Below are positions 32,875 through 54,315 of a stretch of DNA of 64,000 nucleotides, piece by piece. Below the pieces are notes generated by a model that was not told the DNA's origin, ran no database searches, and saw only the letters and a list, made by a program, of their open reading frames with translations. Position 1 is the first letter of the stretch, and every line of letters begins with the position of its first letter. This stretch comes from Escherichia coli (GTDB lineage Bacteria; Pseudomonadota; Gammaproteobacteria; Enterobacterales; Enterobacteriaceae): assembly GCF_046105845.1 (NCBI RefSeq), contig NZ_CP151004.1; one strand, written 5' to 3'. Both the position numbers and the translations under genes were made by a program.

Positions 32875-33118
32875 TAATCTTACAGGGAGATTCCTTATCT
32901 CCCTGACATTTATCCTTTATTGACTACACAACAATAATGAAATTACTCAAAAAGAAATTTCATTAAAGAAACAAAAAAGCAGTAACTCAATCATTAAGAT
33001 TATTAGAAACCCTTTGAAGGGATTATAAATAAAGCCAGAAATCTTGGTTCCAAAGCTGGCAACAACTAACCAGTTAAAACATACGCATCAAAATCAGATA
33101 AACATTTGAGGTATTGTT

Positions 33119-34261
33119 ATGACAAATAAACACCCATCATTGTTTTCTCCTTTTATGCTGACAGAAAAAATAAAGCTACGTAATCGTATCGTTATGGCTC
33201 CTATGACGACCTGGTCAGCGAATCCTGATGGAACCATCTCTGAGCAAGAACTCGAATTTTATAAACGCCGCTCACAAAATGTTGGTTTAGTAATAACAGG
33301 ATGCACCTATGTCACGCCAAGCGGCATTGGGTTTACTCATGAATTTGCCGCGTATGACGACCGTTTCATTAACAGCCTTGAAAAGTTAGCAGCTGCAGCC
33401 AAAAGTGGCGGTGCTCCGGCTATTTTGCAGATTTTCCACGCCGGTAATAAAGCCATCCCGGAGCTTGTGCCAAATAACGATGTTATTAGTGCCAGCGCAT
33501 CAAGCGTAAAATCTGGTGATTTTATGAAGAGAGTGGTACAAAGCAGGGAAATGACTGAAAACGAAATTCAGGAAACCATTAGAGCATTCGGAGATGTCAC
33601 AAAAAGGGCGATTAAAGCAGGTTTTGATGGCGTTGAACTTCATGGTGCGCACGGATTCCTTCTGCAGAATTTCTTCTCCCCTCTATTTAACCAGCGTAAT
33701 GACCGATGGGGAGGAGATCTTGAAGGACGTATGCGCTTCCCGCTGGCCGTATTACAGGAAGTAAAAAATGTAGTCTATGAATATGCGACAAAGCCCTTTG
33801 CTATCGGTTACAGAATATCTCCTGAAGAATCTGTAACAGGGGGGCTGCGGATAGAGGATACTTATAAACTCCTTGATCGACTCATTTCATCCGGTATTTC
33901 GTATATACATACCTCGCTGGTCAGTATTAACGATAGCTACCCTGTTGAGTCGCCAAATGGCCCCCGAACTATTGAATTGATTTTAAATCATATTGCAGGC
34001 AGAGTGCCGGTAATCGCTGCAGGTAAAATACGCACACCGTCTCAGGCTCAAGAAGCAATTTCCGCTGGCCTGCCACTTGTTGCGATCGGTAAAGGGCTGG
34101 TGATAAATCCAGAATGGGTGACTTTAGCTGAATCAGGTAGAGGCCATGAAATTCAAACAACCCTTAATCCACAACTTGTTCCTGAATTAACCATTCCGGA
34201 TAAACTATGGGATCAAATTCAGGCATCGAAAGGAACTGGCTGGTTTCCGTTAATGGATTAA
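33119..34261 (+). CDS. NADH:flavin oxidoreductase, Old Yellow Enzyme family
   Basis: 380 aa; OYE-like N-terminus (RNRIVMAPMTT...QIFHAGNKA...ELHGAHGFLLQNFFSP). Confidence 0.8.
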   Translation: MTNKHPSLFSPFMLTEKIKLRNRIVMAPMTTWSANPDGTISEQELEFYKRRSQNVGLVITGCTYVTPSGIGFTHEFAAYDDRFINSLEKLAAAAKSGGAPAILQIFHAGNKAIPELVPNNDVISASASSVKSGDFMKRVVQSREMTENEIQETIRAFGDVTKRAIKAGFDGVELHGAHGFLLQNFFSPLFNQRNDRWGGDLEGRMRFPLAVLQEVKNVVYEYATKPFAIGYRISPEESVTGGLRIEDTYKLLDRLISSGISYIHTSLVSINDSYPVESPNGPRTIELILNHIAGRVPVIAAGKIRTPSQAQEAISAGLPLVAIGKGLVINPEWVTLAESGRGHEIQTTLNPQLVPELTIPDKLWDQIQASKGTGWFPLMD

Positions 34262-34733
34262 ATATCTATTACTCTCCCGAGAGTAAAACTATCAAATCAA
34301 TGAGTAACCGATACAGCCTCACAAATTCTTTCAGATAATTAACCCGTCACTGCGGCACGTTCTCTCGTAAGGCGTGCCTGCAGTGTAATCCAGTATGTAT
34401 CTGGCATAGTTGACGGTTTAATAGAACTCAATTCCTCTCCCAGGTCACCAACAACGATATCTTGTATAACACCCCAGGAGATACGACATTATGATGAGAT
34501 GAGGTATGCTCCTCAGCGCCAATCAACGCCAGGGCTGGGCCAGTTTTGAGATCAGACTCATTCCCGGACTGACTTCAGGCGACATATATCAATGACGTTG
34601 GGGCAATAAAAGATAGCCGATGTAATACATCTATTCAAATTTGTGATACATGTCAAAAAATTGGTTGACCAAACTCGTTATTTATATAAGGGCACTTACG
34701 AAGTGCACTCTTTTTTAAAGCGAGGAAGTACCA

Positions 34734-34835
34734 ATGAAAGAGAATAAAGTACAGCAAATCAGTCATAAACTGATTAATATCGTTGTTTTTATCGCAATTG
34801 TAGAATACGCCTATTTATTTCTCCATTTCTATTAA
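34734..34835 (+). CDS. ykgR: Small membrane protein YkgR (33 aa)
   Basis: ORF MKENKVQQISHKLINIVVFIAIVEYAYLFLHFY; matches recalled YkgR; hydrophobic C-terminal half. Confidence 0.7.
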   Translation: MKENKVQQISHKLINIVVFIAIVEYAYLFLHFY

Positions 34836-35157
34836 TAACGGCAGTAAACTGTTCACTTCAGTGATATTTAAAATATGCATCCTCTCCCTTTTTGTAAGTA
34901 ATTATTATATCCGTGGGAGAGGAATACACGCTGTCAGGTAATCAATCATACTGCGATAAATCATCGGCCAGTAAAGTGGAGATAACCTCCATTCTCGAAA
35001 AAGCGAAACTATCATCAATCACTCATCCAGGCGTTTATGGGAGCGTCGCCAACGGCTGCTAACAATGCCAGACTTCCCCGTTGGGGAAATTCCACATACC
35101 ACAAATAGTCACAGGGATTGGGTGTTGAAATGATCCGGATGAGCATGTATCTTTATG

Positions 35158-35175
35158 GTTATGTTATAACATAAC
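35158..35175. promoter_or_regulatory. Zur box: perfect 18-bp palindrome GTTATGTTATAACATAAC upstream of ykgM
   Basis: Perfect palindrome read directly 9 bp upstream of the ykgM start; matches Zur-box consensus. Confidence 0.85.
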
Positions 35176-35183
35176 AGGTAAAA

Positions 35184-35450
35184 ATGATGAAACCCAATAT
35201 CCATCCTGAGTATCGTACTGTGGTGTTCCATGACACCAGTGTTGATGAGTACTTTAAAATCGGCTCGACTATCAAAACAGACCGTGAGATTGAGCTGGAT
35301 GGCGTAACGTATCCGTACGTGACAATTGATGTCTCTTCGAAATCGCACCCGTTCTATACAGGGAAGCTGAGAACAGTAGCATCAGAAGGAAATGTTGCAC
35401 GGTTCACCCAACGTTTTGGTCGTTTTGTTAGCACGAAAAAGGGGGCGTGA
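35184..35450 (+). CDS. ykgM: Zinc-independent ribosomal protein L31 paralog (type B)
   Basis: 88 aa [18 protein letters not shown]...; lacks the Zn-ribbon Cys pairs; Zur box upstream. Confidence 0.92.
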
Positions 35451-35590
35451 TGAAAGTCCTTAACTCTCTGCGTACCGCAAAAGAACGCCATCCAGACTGT
35501 CAGATTGTGAAGCGAAAAGGACGGCTATATGTGATTTGTAAATCTAATCCACGTTTTAAGGCCGTTCAGGGTCGTAAGAAAAAACGTTGA
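35450..35590 (+). CDS. ykgO: Ribosomal protein L36 paralog
   Basis: 46 aa [46 protein letters not shown]; start overlaps ykgM stop (TGATG). Confidence 0.9.
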
Positions 35591-35996
35591 TTCAAAATTC
35601 GACGGATTAATGATATTTGTCTGATTAATAATCAGACCTGATTAATGTTGGTGTATTTATTACACCAGCATTAATTTTCTTGGGGATGTATCTTCCTGTT
35701 CATTTAAGGTCAACTGCCTGACGTTTCTCTCCGAATATTCCATTATATTAATGTTGACTTGTTAACCAGGTGCGCCCTGTATGCTGGCATCAACTCTCTT
35801 TTAGACTGAACACGCCACTCAGTTTCCTCCCTTTGCGACGCAGCCTGCATTTACACTCAAACGGTTAAGATGATAAATGTGGTAAATCTGTTGGTACTGA
35901 CATAAAAACGTTTACGTCACAGGAACGGCCTGATCCACCGGTAACCCCATCGCCGACGTTCGAGTGCCAGTTAGAGTAACGCGCACAGATGACTGA

Positions 35997-36221
35997 ATGC
36001 AGTGCCCTGGCAAAGAGGCCATCGTTCCTGTGACAACTGGCAGTCTTCGTTTAACTTCACTTAATTTGGCTCTTAGGGGGCTTACCGGACAGATGACGTA
36101 CTTACACCTGTTTAATTTTTCATCACTTATTGGGATGAACACCCATAACCATTTTGTGCGGCATGTTAATCCATTAAAACACCTTACTGATTGGCAAATC
36201 ATCTTTAATTATGACTCATGA
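35997..36221 (+). CDS. Hypothetical small protein (possibly ykgL-like)
   Basis: 74-aa ORF between ykgO and ecpR; overlaps an opposite-strand ORF; no recognisable motif. Confidence 0.2.
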   Translation: MQCPGKEAIVPVTTGSLRLTSLNLALRGLTGQMTYLHLFNFSSLIGMNTHNHFVRHVNPLKHLTDWQIIFNYDS

Positions 36222-36604
36222 TAGTTTTATATTCTATTTCTTATCATTTAAACTTGTTTTTTTACTAGTCCATCACACAACACATTAAGACTATTCCTAA
36301 CACCTCAGGGCAAAGTTCCTGGCTAATATAAAATGCAAGTAAGAATTGAACGTTATATTGCCAATAACCTTATGAAACTGAATGTCTTTTTCTTCTTATC
36401 AAAAAAGCAATATTTTCATTTTTTGTAAATATTGACTTAACCATGGAATTCCTTTTCTGTTCACATATTGACACTCATCAGGAAAAAAACATAAATTTAA
36501 ACCTAATCGAAATAATTAAAACTTAATCTCGTTTAACCTATATTGATATGTGCTACGTATCTTATTTACTTCCGATTTACTAAAGAAACTGAATGTACCT
36601 GTAA

Positions 36605-37216
<612 letters not shown>

Positions 37217-37290
37217 ACTCCAGGCAAGTTAGTTTTAAAAAATGACTCACAGGGACATCACGTCCTCAATTCAACTCGGGAAGAAAAGCA

Positions 37291-37878
37291 ATGAAAAAAA
37301 AGGTTCTGGCAATAGCTCTGGTAACGGTGTTTACCGGTACAGGTGTGGCGCAGGCTGCTGACGTAACAGCTCAGGCTGTAGCGACCTGGTCAGCAACAGC
37401 CAAAAAAGACACCACCAGTAAGCTGGTTGTGACGCCACTCGGTAGCCTGGCGTTCCAGTATGCCGAAGGCATTAAAGGTTTTAACTCACAGAAAGGTCTA
37501 TTTGACGTAGCTATCGAGGGTGACTCAACGGCTACCGCCTTTAAACTGACCTCACGTCTTATCACCAACACCTTAACCCAGTTGGATACCTCAGGTTCCA
37601 CACTGAATGTGGGCGTGGATTATAACGGCGCGGCAGTCGAAAAAACTGGCGATACCGTGATGATCGATACCGCCAACGGCGTACTGGGCGGCAACCTTAG
37701 CCCACTGGCTAACGGTTACAATGCCAGCAATCGTACCACCGCACAGGATGGTTTCACTTTCTCCATCATCAGCGGCACCACCAATGGTACCACCGCAGTA
37801 ACCGATTACAGCACTCTACCGGAAGGCATCTGGAGCGGCGACGTTAGCGTACAGTTCGACGCTACCTGGACCAGTTAA
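37291..37878 (+). CDS. ecpA: E. coli common pilus major subunit EcpA (MatB)
   Basis: 195 aa with signal peptide [22 protein letters not shown]; sequence matches recalled EcpA. Confidence 0.92.
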
Positions 37879-37933
37879 TCTCTCTGATGTACCAGCAGGG
37901 GTCCCCCCTGCTTTATTCCTGGACGGAATTGTT

Positions 37934-38602
37934 ATGAAAAAGCACCTTCTGCCTCTCACTCTGCTGTTTTCCGGAATATCTCCGGCCCAGGCGCTGGATG
38001 TCGGCGATATATCATCGTTTATGAACAGTGACAGCAGCACGCTGAGCAAAACGATCAAAAACAGTACCGACAGTGGTCGCCTCATCAATATCCGTCTCGA
38101 ACGGCTCTCTTCACCGCTTGACGACGGGCAGGTTATCGCAATGGACAAGCCGGATGAGTTGCTACTCACTCCCGCCAGCTTGCTGCTACCCGCCCAAGCC
38201 AGCGAAGTGATCCGCTTCTTCTATAAGGGACCCGCAGATGAAAAAGAGCGCTACTACCGCATTGTCTGGTTTGATCAGGCCCTCAGTGATGCGCAGCGCG
38301 ATAATGCCAACCGAAGCGCTGTAGCCACTGCTTCCGCCCGCATCGGCACCATTCTGGTCGTCGCCCCTCGCCAGGCGAACTACCACTTTCAGTACGCCAA
38401 CGGCTCCCTGACAAATACAGGAAATGCGACGCTGCGGATCCTCGCCTACGGCCCCTGCCTGAAAGCCGTCAATGGTAAGGAGTGTAAAGAGAATTACTAC
38501 CTGATGCCGGGCAAGTCGCGTCGTTTTACCCGCGTGGACACTGCGGATAACAAAGGACGGGTTGCACTTTGGCAGGGTGATAAGTTCATTCCCGTGAAAT
38601 AG
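37934..38602 (+). CDS. ecpB: ECP periplasmic chaperone EcpB
   Basis: 222 aa, signal peptide, position in operon. Confidence 0.85.
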
Positions 38603-44107: not shown

Positions 44108-44355
44108 ATATGCAATAATTAATTGCACTGCCCCGCCAGCTATAATCGCGGGGCTTCGTTTTTCAGGGATAACAAAACCCGAAACTTCTTCCATCTGCCA
44201 GCAACAATGCCTCTTCCTCTATAGTGTTCTCCGGATCTACAGCATCCTGAAGTAGCGCGATGTACTCATTGGCTATCTGCGTCAGAAAGTTAAAAACAAT
44301 GTTTTTAACCTATAAAAATGGCGCTGTATTTGCGCCATTTTTATCATTCAATGCA

Positions 44356-53836: not shown

Positions 53837-54061
53837 ACGTTAATAACGACCGACTCTTCACTGTGCAACATTGTGTCAGGTAGTCCCTCTGCGTTCAATT
53901 CCAGGGTCTGCTTTGAGCGAGAAAGAGGGGACTATCCAGCAATGGAGATCACCCAAAAGAAAAAACCACCTGGCTCCCTCGACAACCTTCATCCAGGCAT
54001 TTAGCCTCAATCAACATTTTTATATCTGTCAGGTTACTTCATGATGAAAACTGATCATTAT

Positions 54062-54315
54062 CGTTGTTTTTGTTGCAATAGTAGAATACGCGTATTTATT
54101 CCTCCATCTCTATTAATAACGGCAATAAACTGTTCACTTCACTGATATTTAAAATATGTATCCTTTTCAAGCTGTTCAGCGGCGTAAGAAAAAGTATTAA
54201 TTATGAATTCGACGATTTAACCATATCTGTCTGATTGGTAATCATCCGTGATTAATGTTGGTCTATTGATTACGCCAGCATTAACCGCTTAGGGATGTAT
54301 TCTTCCTGTTGATAT
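54062..54315 (+). repeat. Degenerate paralogous copy of the ykgR 3' half fused to the ykgO 3' end plus downstream sequence
   Basis: About 90% identity over about 100 bp to 34776-34885 and about 75-80% over about 145 bp to 35561-35705, by eye; ykgM/ykgO and the Zur box are missing from this copy. Confidence 0.7.

What the first reader, a model, noticed from the sequence alone, without database searches (positions are those of the whole stretch)
35600..35660. Clustered TGATTAAT motifs including a 17-bp palindrome downstream of ykgO
Within about 60 bp the motif gattaat occurs three times. The middle occurrence forms a perfect palindrome, tctgattaataatcaga (35620-35636). The homologous stretch in the degenerate second copy (about 54225-54265) is partly eroded. 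This could be a regulator-binding array or a terminator for ykgMO.
Basis: seen in the sequence. Interest (0 to 1): 0.3.

Follow-up and report, generated by a model that had tools for sequence, protein, structure and literature searches.

The report
ykgMO terminator hairpins, not regulator array
The clustered GATTAAT motifs lie in the AT-rich 3' untranslated region of the E. coli zinc-starvation ribosomal-protein operon ykgMO, where one forms the foot of a conserved terminator-type hairpin, one is the core of an E. coli-specific palindrome and one is a strain-private base change, so this is an ordinary operon end rather than a regulator-binding array.

Summary
GATTAAT occurs at 35605, 35623 and 35640, and the palindrome is perfect; it is in fact 19 bp long (35619-35637). 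Such clustering never arose in 200 simulated windows.

It is not a conserved array:
TTTTCTT follows it, 50-86 nt after the ykgO stop.
  - It ranks 13th among terminator-like sites on both strands of the window.
  - It is kept in all 10 E. coli sampled, a divergent Escherichia genome, E. albertii and the degenerate second copy.
  - E. albertii carries one compensatory G-C to A-U change.
  - Published Term-seq places a bicyclomycin-insensitive RNA 3' end at its foot on the opposite (ykgL) strand.
- **Motif 2**, the palindrome, is invariant in the E. coli sampled. It is absent from both outgroups and from copy 2.
- **Motif 1** reads GATTAAC or AATTAAC in nearly all E. coli. The exact three-motif allele occurs in 10 of 5,061 records.

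Outside Escherichia the sequence downstream of ykgO is unrelated.

Verdict: this is an ordinary, sub-canonical intrinsic terminator region at the convergent ykgO/ykgL junction. The function of the palindrome is unproven. Interest is low.

The parts
35158..35175 (.). 18-bp perfect palindrome GTTATGTTATAACATAAC upstream of ykgM. It sits where the known Zur operator of ykgMO lies. This is context only, not part of the finding.
   Evidence: Palindrome scan and sequence. Zur repression of ykgMO is described in PMC7297116. Equating this palindrome with the Zur box rests on my own knowledge.
35187..35450 (+). ykgM, the zinc-independent type B ribosomal protein L31
   Evidence: RefSeq annotation of the identical PCN033 sequence; ORF list
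35450..35590 (+). ykgO, the type B ribosomal protein L36 and last gene of the operon
35585..35604 (+). Weak 6-bp stem-loop spanning the ykgO stop codon (CGUUGA...UCGACG)
   Evidence: Minimum-free-energy fold. It is not robust: it is replaced by another fold when the folded range changes.
35605..35611 (+). GATTAAT motif 1. It is a lineage-private variant; other E. coli carry GATTAAC or AATTAAC.
35619..35637 (.). 19-bp palindrome GTCTGATTAATAATCAGAC, which contains motif 2 (35623-35629). As RNA it is an 8-bp stem with a 3-nt loop, -8.1 kcal/mol.
   Evidence: The 17-bp core is invariant in 10 E. coli and absent from L005, E. albertii and copy 2.
35640..35676 (+). Terminator-type hairpin. Arms are ATTAATGTTGGTGTA / TACACCAGCATTAAT and the loop is TTTAT. 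Motif 3 (35640-35646) is its 5' foot.
   Evidence: -20.5 kcal/mol, z = -6.9; d = +3.7, rank 13 in the window; conserved in all Escherichia copies
35676..35681 (+). Short interrupted U-tract, TTTCTT (TTTCCT in most E. coli)
35639..35639 (-). Position equivalent to the Term-seq RNA 3' end mapped in MG1655 at 312325(+). It lies 2 nt past the hairpin on the ykgL-sense strand.
   Evidence: PMC7815308 supplementary files 1 and 3; coordinate mapping verified
35625..35850 (-). ykgL remnant. It is a pseudogene in this strain, with several in-frame stops. In K-12 the stop codon of the intact ORF falls inside the palindrome.
54048..54313 (+). Degenerate second copy: the ykgR 3' part fused directly to the ykgO 3' end and the eroded hairpin region

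Best explanation
The 35600-35680 stretch is the 3' untranslated region and transcription-end region of the Zur-repressed ykgM-ykgO operon. It sits where that operon converges on the decaying, oppositely oriented ykgL.

The functional core is a long A/U-rich hairpin at 35640-35676 with a G/C-containing upper stem, followed by UUU(U)CUU. When ykgMO is derepressed under zinc starvation, RNA polymerase most likely terminates here, probably with some read-through (inferred). The hairpin would also protect the mRNA 3' end.

On the other strand the same hairpin marks the 3' end of ykgL-sense transcripts. This is shown by published Term-seq in K-12.

ATTAAT is self-complementary, so it appears in both feet of this stem and in the neighbouring palindrome. 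The palindrome is a second, E. coli-specific stem-loop in the 3' UTR. Its function is unproven: it may be an auxiliary RNA hairpin or have no function at all. The first GATTAAT results from a single C-to-T change private to this strain's lineage.

The apparent array is therefore a by-product of two inverted repeats plus one substitution. It is not a set of protein-binding sites.
For: - Hairpin arms are 15 nt, 93% complementary, with a 5-nt loop.
- The + strand RNA fold of the region is -35.3 kcal/mol, z = -6.2. The hairpin alone is -20.5 kcal/mol, z = -6.9.
- My d'Aubenton-Carafa-type scan of all 128,000 positions on both strands gives d = +3.7, rank 13, with only 15 sites above 0.
- The hairpin lies 50-86 nt after the stop codon of the last gene of the operon.
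- It is retained in 10 of 10 E. coli, in L005, in E. albertii and in copy 2. One pair has a compensatory G-C to A-U change, and another shows U-G, U-A and C-G.
- Term-seq in MG1655 maps a 3' end at 312325(+), 2 nt past the hairpin on the opposite strand. Its Rho score is 0.91 and it is not in a Rho termination region.
- ykgL-ykgO is listed as a convergent overlapping transcript pair in MG1655 (PMC12288877).
- ykgL reads rise together with ykgM and ykgO under calprotectin zinc chelation in E. coli Nissle (PMC12279244).
- PMC7297116, Fig. 2A, draws a terminator after ykgO.
- Non-conservation of the motif array.
Against: - No RNA 3' end has been mapped on the ykgMO strand. The operon is repressed in the published Term-seq conditions.
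- The U-tract is short and interrupted. It is TTTCCT in most E. coli and is not kept in L005 (GCATGCTG) or E. albertii (CTTATCTG).
- The tool's simple terminator scan did not call the hairpin.
- The d-score is only marginally positive.
- The covariation support is not statistically significant on 11 distinct sequences.
- The intrinsic-terminator score given by Adams et al. for the antisense 3' end is 2.35, below their cut-off of 3.0. That end may therefore come from exonuclease trimming.
- The palindrome is not explained mechanistically.
Confidence: 0.72

Rival explanations
1. The three TGATTAAT copies form an array of binding sites for one transcription factor, as direct repeats 17-18 bp apart. 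The factor would control ykgMO, ykgL or ecp expression.
For: The clustering is far above chance in this window. CTGATTAAT occurs twice exactly, 17 nt apart.
Against: - Motif 1 is not GATTAAT in any of 9 other E. coli sampled. The exact allele occurs in 10 of 5,061 records.
- Motif 3 is GGATTAAT, or GGTTTAAT in one strain.
- Motifs 1 and 2 are absent from E. albertii and L005.
- The site lies after the operon's last gene and about 1 kb from the ecpR start.
- No other copy of the palindrome occurs in the 64-kb window.
- The only literature match to the core is a yeast Yap8 element.
Confidence: 0.04
2. The 17-19-bp palindrome alone is an operator for a dimeric DNA-binding protein or a nucleoid-associated protein such as Fis. 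It would act as a roadblock or architectural site between the convergent ykgMO and ykgL units.
For: - It is a perfect odd-centred palindrome and is invariant in 10 of 10 E. coli.
- A degenerate Fis-type consensus, recalled from memory, matches twice in the palindrome and once at the top of the hairpin. That is 3 of only 10 matches in the window.
- The other long intergenic palindrome at this locus is a true operator, the Zur box.
Against: - Invariance of 17 bp among sequences 95-98% identical is expected about one time in five.
- The palindrome is absent from both outgroups and from copy 2.
- Any G-(AT-rich)-C palindrome satisfies the Fis pattern, and the pattern is not enriched in the window overall (10 found, 10.6 expected).
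- There is no promoter context.
Confidence: 0.1
3. The ykgO 3' UTR (palindrome hairpin, terminator hairpin and U-tail) is released as a zinc-starvation-induced 3'UTR-derived small RNA. Alternatively it serves mainly as the overlap segment of a ykgMO/ykgL antisense ('excludon') switch.
For: - The architecture of two hairpins plus a U-tail resembles 3'UTR-derived sRNAs.
- ykgL-ykgO is listed as a convergent excludon.
- Antisense 3' ends and a Rho termination region lie opposite ykgO and ykgM.
- An antisense RNA, ECS017, opposite the ykgM promoter has been reported.
Against: - No Rfam family matches.
- No literature links ykgO with Hfq-bound sRNAs.
- ykgL is frameshifted or interrupted in many strains, including this one, so there is little to regulate.
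- The single-stranded GAUUAAU candidate seeds are not conserved.
Confidence: 0.08
4. Apart from the conserved hairpin, the palindrome and the extra motifs have no function. They would be neutral products of substitutions and small indels in AT-rich, TpA-rich, weakly constrained DNA.
For: - The palindrome appears to derive from an ancestral ...TAATCATGCC / TAATCATCC state kept in L005, E. albertii and copy 2.
- Motif 1 arose by a single private substitution.
- The local G+C content is 30%.
- The palindrome hairpin is not part of every minimum-free-energy fold.
Against: - A perfect 19-bp palindrome is uncommon: 98 of 200 simulated windows had at least one with arms of 9 or more, and the real window has six.
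- L005 has a different 5-bp hairpin (GTCTG-GTTAG-CAGAC) at the same place, made by a 6-bp insertion. This hints at selection for some stem there.
Confidence: 0.3

Closest known systems
Rho-independent (intrinsic) transcription terminators of E. coli, including bidirectional terminators between convergent genes
   Same: - A stable stem-loop lies directly after the last gene of the operon and is followed by a U-rich run.
- An A/U-rich stem foot extends the pairing into the U-tract.
- The hairpin is shared by two convergent transcription units, with a mapped 3' end at its foot on one strand.
- It is among the best-scoring terminator-like sites in the window.
   Different: - The stem is unusually long and A/U-rich: 4 G-C pairs out of 15-16.
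- The U-tract is short and interrupted, and it is not conserved outside E. coli.
- No U-tract exists on the ykgL strand.
- There is no direct 3' end evidence on the ykgMO strand.
Excludon-type convergent overlapping transcription units
   Same: ykgL-ykgO is listed among 165 convergent excludons of MG1655 (PMC12288877). Antisense transcripts run into ykgO and ykgM and are stopped by Rho.
   Different: ykgL is a pseudogene in many strains, so mutual regulation has no obvious beneficiary. No experimental test has been reported.
Zur box of the ykgM promoter (regulator-binding palindrome at the same locus)
   Same: Both are perfect AT-rich palindromes in the same operon.
   Different: The Zur box is an even 9+9 palindrome, GTTATGTTA/TAACATAAC, overlapping the promoter. 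The finding's palindrome has an unrelated sequence, has an odd centre and lies after the operon.
Yeast Yap8 response element TGATTAATAATCA
   Same: The 13-bp core is identical.
   Different: It is a eukaryotic bZIP site. This is coincidence and has no relevance in E. coli.

Membership tests
Intrinsic (Rho-independent) terminator | Stable RNA stem-loop with G-C pairs and a loop of 3-8 nt | tested here: met
   15-16 bp stem with 4 G-C pairs and a 5-nt loop; -20.5 kcal/mol, z = -6.9
Intrinsic (Rho-independent) terminator | U-rich tract immediately 3' of the stem | tested here: inconclusive
   UUU(U)CUU in the window and UUUUCCU in most E. coli. The tail score is 3.8 and d = +3.7 in my scan, but the tool's simple scan did not call it. 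The tract is not kept in L005 or E. albertii.
Intrinsic (Rho-independent) terminator | Position just downstream of the last gene of a transcription unit | tested here: met
   The stem begins 50 nt after the ykgO stop codon.
Intrinsic (Rho-independent) terminator | Hairpin conserved in orthologous loci, with pairing-preserving changes | tested here: met
   Present in 10 of 10 E. coli, L005, E. albertii and copy 2. There is 1 compensatory pair and several wobble exchanges. Statistical support is weak.
Intrinsic (Rho-independent) terminator | Mapped RNA 3' end in the U-tract on the strand concerned, independent of Rho | not testable with these tools
   No ykgMO-strand 3' end appears in PMC7815308, because the operon is repressed under those conditions. 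Only the opposite-strand end at the hairpin foot is recorded, and it is bicyclomycin-insensitive.
Transcription-factor binding-site array | Motif recurrence above chance | tested here: met
   3 GATTAAT within 45 bp in 0 of 200 simulations
Transcription-factor binding-site array | Motif copies and their spacing conserved in orthologous loci | tested here: not met
   Motif 1 differs in 9 of 9 other E. coli and the exact allele occurs in 10 of 5,061 records. Motifs 1 and 2 are absent from both outgroups. No homology is found outside Escherichia.
Transcription-factor binding-site array | Placement relative to a promoter that it could control | tested here: not met
   No promoter-like site at 35550-35750. 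It lies after ykgO and about 1 kb upstream of ecpR.
Transcription-factor binding-site array | Match to a known factor's matrix, or ChIP/footprint evidence | not testable with these tools
   No motif library or ChIP tracks are available. The only lead is a degenerate Fis-type pattern recalled from memory, which matches.
Described RNA family (Rfam) | Covariance-model match | tested here: not met
   0 matches at E <= 1 in 33000-38000, both strands

The most novel reading that the evidence does not exclude
The E. coli-specific perfect 19-bp palindrome is a real functional element acquired recently. It could be an operator or roadblock for an unidentified dimeric DNA-binding or nucleoid protein at the ykgMO/ykgL convergence point. 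Alternatively it could be the body of a zinc-starvation-induced 3'UTR-derived small RNA released from the ykgMO transcript.
Probability: 0.07. Interest if true: 0.45.

Novelty: new member of a known kind. Interest (0 to 1): 0.1.

Why it matters
It matters little. The result tidies the annotation of a well-studied zinc-starvation operon in three ways:
- It places the probable ykgMO terminator at 35640-35681.
- It shows that this hairpin lies inside the annotated ykgL reading frame. The mapped ykgL-sense RNA ends 14 nt before the ykgL stop codon, which argues that ykgL is not a normal protein-coding gene.
- It shows that a visually striking motif cluster can result from two inverted repeats plus a strain-private substitution.

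If the terminator is leaky, read-through from a 1000-fold-induced promoter into the ykgL/ecpR region could be worth a look.

Tried and rejected
- **Rfam.** A search of 33000-38000 at E <= 1 found nothing.
- **Tandem Repeats Finder.** It found no tandem array, so an origin by 17-18-bp tandem duplication is unsupported, despite 78% similarity between 35597-35614 and 35615-35632.
- **Simple terminator and promoter scan.** It called neither the hairpin nor any promoter here. The miss is explained by the maximal stem swallowing one T of a short tract; my own scoring ranks the site 13th.
- **Orthologous loci.** About 75 of the 80 loci fetched with YkgM are from other genera and have unrelated sequence after ykgO. 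This sequence is often the end of a convergent gene or a G+C-rich terminator, so they give no information on this element.
- **Literature search for the palindrome core.** It returned only yeast Yap8 papers, rejected as coincidence.
- **Other copies in the window.** No further copies of the palindrome were found with up to 3 mismatches.
- **Dispersed repeats.** A dispersed repeat or mobile element is rejected: there is a median of one place per E. coli genome.
- **NCBIfam.** It has no model matching K-12 YkgL.
- **Term-seq supplements.** Supplements of other Term-seq papers were not held or did not mention the locus.
- **Known operator consensus sequences.** From memory I compared the palindrome with FNR/CRP, Fur, ArgR, LexA, PmrA and IHF. 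The half-site spacing or sequence did not fit any of them. This was not a tool test.

Full report
**Where this is**

The window is Escherichia coli. Positions 35100-35800 are 100% identical to strain PCN033 and 95-99% identical to about 5,050 other complete E. coli genomes. RefSeq annotation of the identical sequence and the ORF list give the following, all on the + strand:
- ykgR at 34734-34835;
- ykgM at 35187-35450;
- ykgO at 35450-35590;
- ecpR from about 36626.

On the minus strand, a ykgL remnant lies at about 35625-35850. In K-12 ykgL is an intact 75-codon ORF convergent with ykgO. In this strain it carries several in-frame stops. The finding therefore lies in the 3' untranslated region of the Zur-repressed ykgMO operon, at a convergent junction.

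**Observation**

- GATTAAT occurs at 35605, 35623 and 35640.
- The palindrome is perfect and is in fact 19 bp long, 35619-35637.
- Three GATTAAT within 45 bp, or four ATTAAT within 75 bp, never arose in 200 Markov simulations of the window.
- The second copy is real. Window 34767-34883 aligns to 54048-54164 at 90.6% identity, and window 35554-35703 aligns to 54164-54313 at 78.8%. Copy 2 is therefore the same locus with about 670 bp deleted: the Zur box, ykgM and most of ykgO. Its palindrome is eroded to tctgattGGtaatcaTCc.

Immediately 3' of the palindrome lies a much larger inverted repeat.
- The arms are ATTAATGTTGGTGTA (35641-35655) and TACACCAGCATTAAT (35661-35675). They are 93% complementary, and the one mismatch is a G-U pair in the + strand RNA. 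The loop is 5 nt.
- TTTTCTT follows the stem.
- The third GATTAAT is simply the 5' foot of this stem. Because ATTAAT is its own reverse complement, the 3' foot carries a fourth ATTAAT at 35670.
- As + strand RNA the region folds into separate hairpins at -35.3 kcal/mol, z = -6.2.
- The big hairpin alone is -20.5 kcal/mol, z = -6.9. On the minus strand it is -14.2 kcal/mol. The palindrome hairpin alone is -8.1 kcal/mol.

**Terminator quality**

The built-in scan did not call the hairpin. The maximal stem absorbs one T, which leaves too few in the tail window.

I therefore scored every position of the window on both strands with a d'Aubenton-Carafa-type function, using ViennaRNA energies and a weighted U-tail. 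The + strand hairpin, with its stem ending at 35674, scores d = +3.7. That is rank 13 overall, with only 15 sites above zero. On the minus strand the same hairpin scores -48.

It is therefore a credible but sub-canonical intrinsic terminator for ykgMO. It is not a canonical terminator for the ykgL strand.

**Conservation**

I fetched 80 loci encoding YkgM relatives from one genome per species. In every genus other than Escherichia, the sequence after ykgO is unrelated.

Only two outgroups are homologous: E. albertii (L004) and a divergent Escherichia genome (L005), which is about 79% identical to E. coli in this stretch. I aligned these with nine further E. coli, K-12 and copy 2.

1. **The big hairpin is present in every sequence.**
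   - E. albertii has a compensatory G-C to A-U change.
   - One pair appears as U-G, U-A and C-G.
   - Overall 94% of cells in this helix are paired.
   - It is part of the minimum-free-energy fold in the window, K-12, L005, E. albertii and copy 2.
   - The covariation is not significant against shuffles, which is expected with 11 distinct, closely related rows.
2. **The 17-bp palindrome core is invariant within E. coli but absent elsewhere.**
   - L005 has a 6-bp insertion giving a different small hairpin, GTCTG-GTTAG-CAGAC.
   - It is also absent from E. albertii and from copy 2.
   - All three non-palindromic sequences share ...TAATCAT(G/C)(C/T)C, so the palindrome looks derived in E. coli.
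3. **Motif 1 is GATTAAC or AATTAAC in all nine other E. coli.** A 57-bp query across the motifs finds the exact allele in 10 of 5,061 records, 20 more records with one or two differences, and 5,031 with three or more.
4. **Motif 3 varies slightly.** It is GGATTAAT in most strains and GGTTTAAT in one.

The three-motif array is therefore private to this strain's lineage.

**Experimental evidence from the literature**

- **Term-seq (Adams et al. 2021, PMC7815308).** The tables list an RNA 3' end at MG1655 312325 on the + strand, which is the ykgL-sense strand.
  - It appears in two of the data tabs of their supplementary file 1.
  - It is classed as internal to ykgL and antisense to ykgO.
  - I verified that their 61-mer equals K-12 312275-312335. 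The end lies 2 nt past the hairpin foot and corresponds to window 35639 on the minus strand.
  - The end is 14 nt upstream of the annotated ykgL stop codon. Together with the frequent frameshifts of ykgL across strains, this argues against ykgL being a normal coding gene.
  - The same paper lists a Rho termination region at 312466(+), antisense to ykgO and ykgM.
- **No ykgMO-strand end is listed.** This is expected, because the operon is silent without zinc starvation (PMC7297116).
- **ExcludonFinder.** It lists ykgL-ykgO among convergent overlapping transcript pairs (PMC12288877).
- **Calprotectin experiment in E. coli Nissle.** ykgL reads rise together with ykgM and ykgO (PMC12279244). This fits a ykgMO transcript that extends into the ykgL annotation, at least as far as the hairpin and perhaps beyond it.
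- **Operon diagram.** PMC7297116 draws a terminator after ykgO in its operon scheme.

**Mechanism**

- **Shown:**
  - the hairpin exists;
  - it is conserved in Escherichia;
  - it is among the best terminator-like sites in the window;
  - it coincides with a mapped 3' end on the opposite strand.
- **Inferred:**
  - It terminates and/or stabilises the ykgMO transcript on the + strand, probably incompletely, given the short interrupted U-tract.
  - On the ykgL strand it acts as a non-canonical stop or as a block to 3'-5' exonucleases.
  - The palindrome would form a second stem-loop in the ykgMO 3' UTR.
- **Unresolved:** whether the palindrome does anything. Its recent origin, and the existence of an alternative fold that excludes it, make a neutral origin a serious possibility.

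**Rivals**

- **Direct-repeat regulator array.** Effectively excluded by the lack of conservation.
- **Operator or nucleoid-protein site on the palindrome.** This cannot be excluded. A degenerate Fis-type pattern, recalled from memory, matches twice in the palindrome and once at the hairpin top, which is 3 of 10 matches in the window. However, any G-(AT-rich)-C palindrome satisfies that pattern, and the pattern is not enriched in the window overall.
- **3'UTR-derived sRNA or excludon function.** This is speculative. There is no Rfam match, no supporting literature, and the candidate seeds are not conserved.

**Verdict**

This is an ordinary operon end. Interest is low.

Noticed in passing
window 54048-54313: The second copy of the locus is a deletion derivative. 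The ykgR 3' part (90.6% identical to 34767-34883) abuts the ykgO 3' end plus hairpin region (78.8% identical to 35554-35703) at 54164. About 670 bp are missing: the Zur box, ykgM and most of ykgO. It lies between a LysR-family regulator gene and a hypothetical gene, about 1.5 kb from tRNA-Thr and an integrase remnant. PGAP annotates a partial ykgR there. The two blocks differ markedly in divergence. Roughly 460-730 extra blastn places across about 5,060 E. coli records suggest that a minority of strains carry it.
   Followed up: partly
window 35625-35850 (- strand); K-12 312112-312339: ykgL is intact in K-12-like strains but frameshifted or interrupted in this strain and in several others sampled. 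The published Term-seq 3' end of ykgL-sense RNA lies 14 nt before the annotated stop codon, and NCBIfam has no matching model. ykgL may not be a real protein-coding gene.
   Followed up: partly
window 35158-35175: A perfect 18-bp palindrome, GTTATGTTATAACATAAC, lies upstream of ykgM where the known Zur operator sits. It is one of six palindromes with arms of 9 bp or more in the window. About half of the simulated windows (98 of 200) had at least one.
   Followed up: no
window 8573-8599, 13933-13959, 44319-44337: Other long palindromes in the window score as terminator-like hairpins in both orientations in my scan. They are probably bidirectional terminators between convergent genes.
   Followed up: no
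K-12 312466 (+), equivalent to about window 35498 on the minus strand: Adams et al. list a Rho termination region antisense to ykgO and ykgM. An older sRNA survey reported an antisense RNA (ECS017, ~275 nt on northern blot) opposite the ykgM promoter. Antisense transcription therefore crosses the silent ykgMO operon.
   Followed up: no
L062 (CACSKA010000001.1): A contig labelled Chryseobacterium sp. 18061 carries an enterobacterial ykgM-ykgO locus whose downstream sequence closely resembles that of Citrobacter sp. 18056 (L054). The record is probably mislabelled or contaminated.
   Followed up: no
E. coli plasmid records: 13-14 of the matches to the ykgMO 3' region lie on records typed as plasmids. 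I did not inspect them.
   Followed up: no
window 35691-35729: TTCCT followed 17 nt later by TGCCT loosely resembles the TTCCT-N17-TTCCT EcpR site, which I recall from the literature. However, it is about 900 bp upstream of ecpR and was not tested.
   Followed up: no
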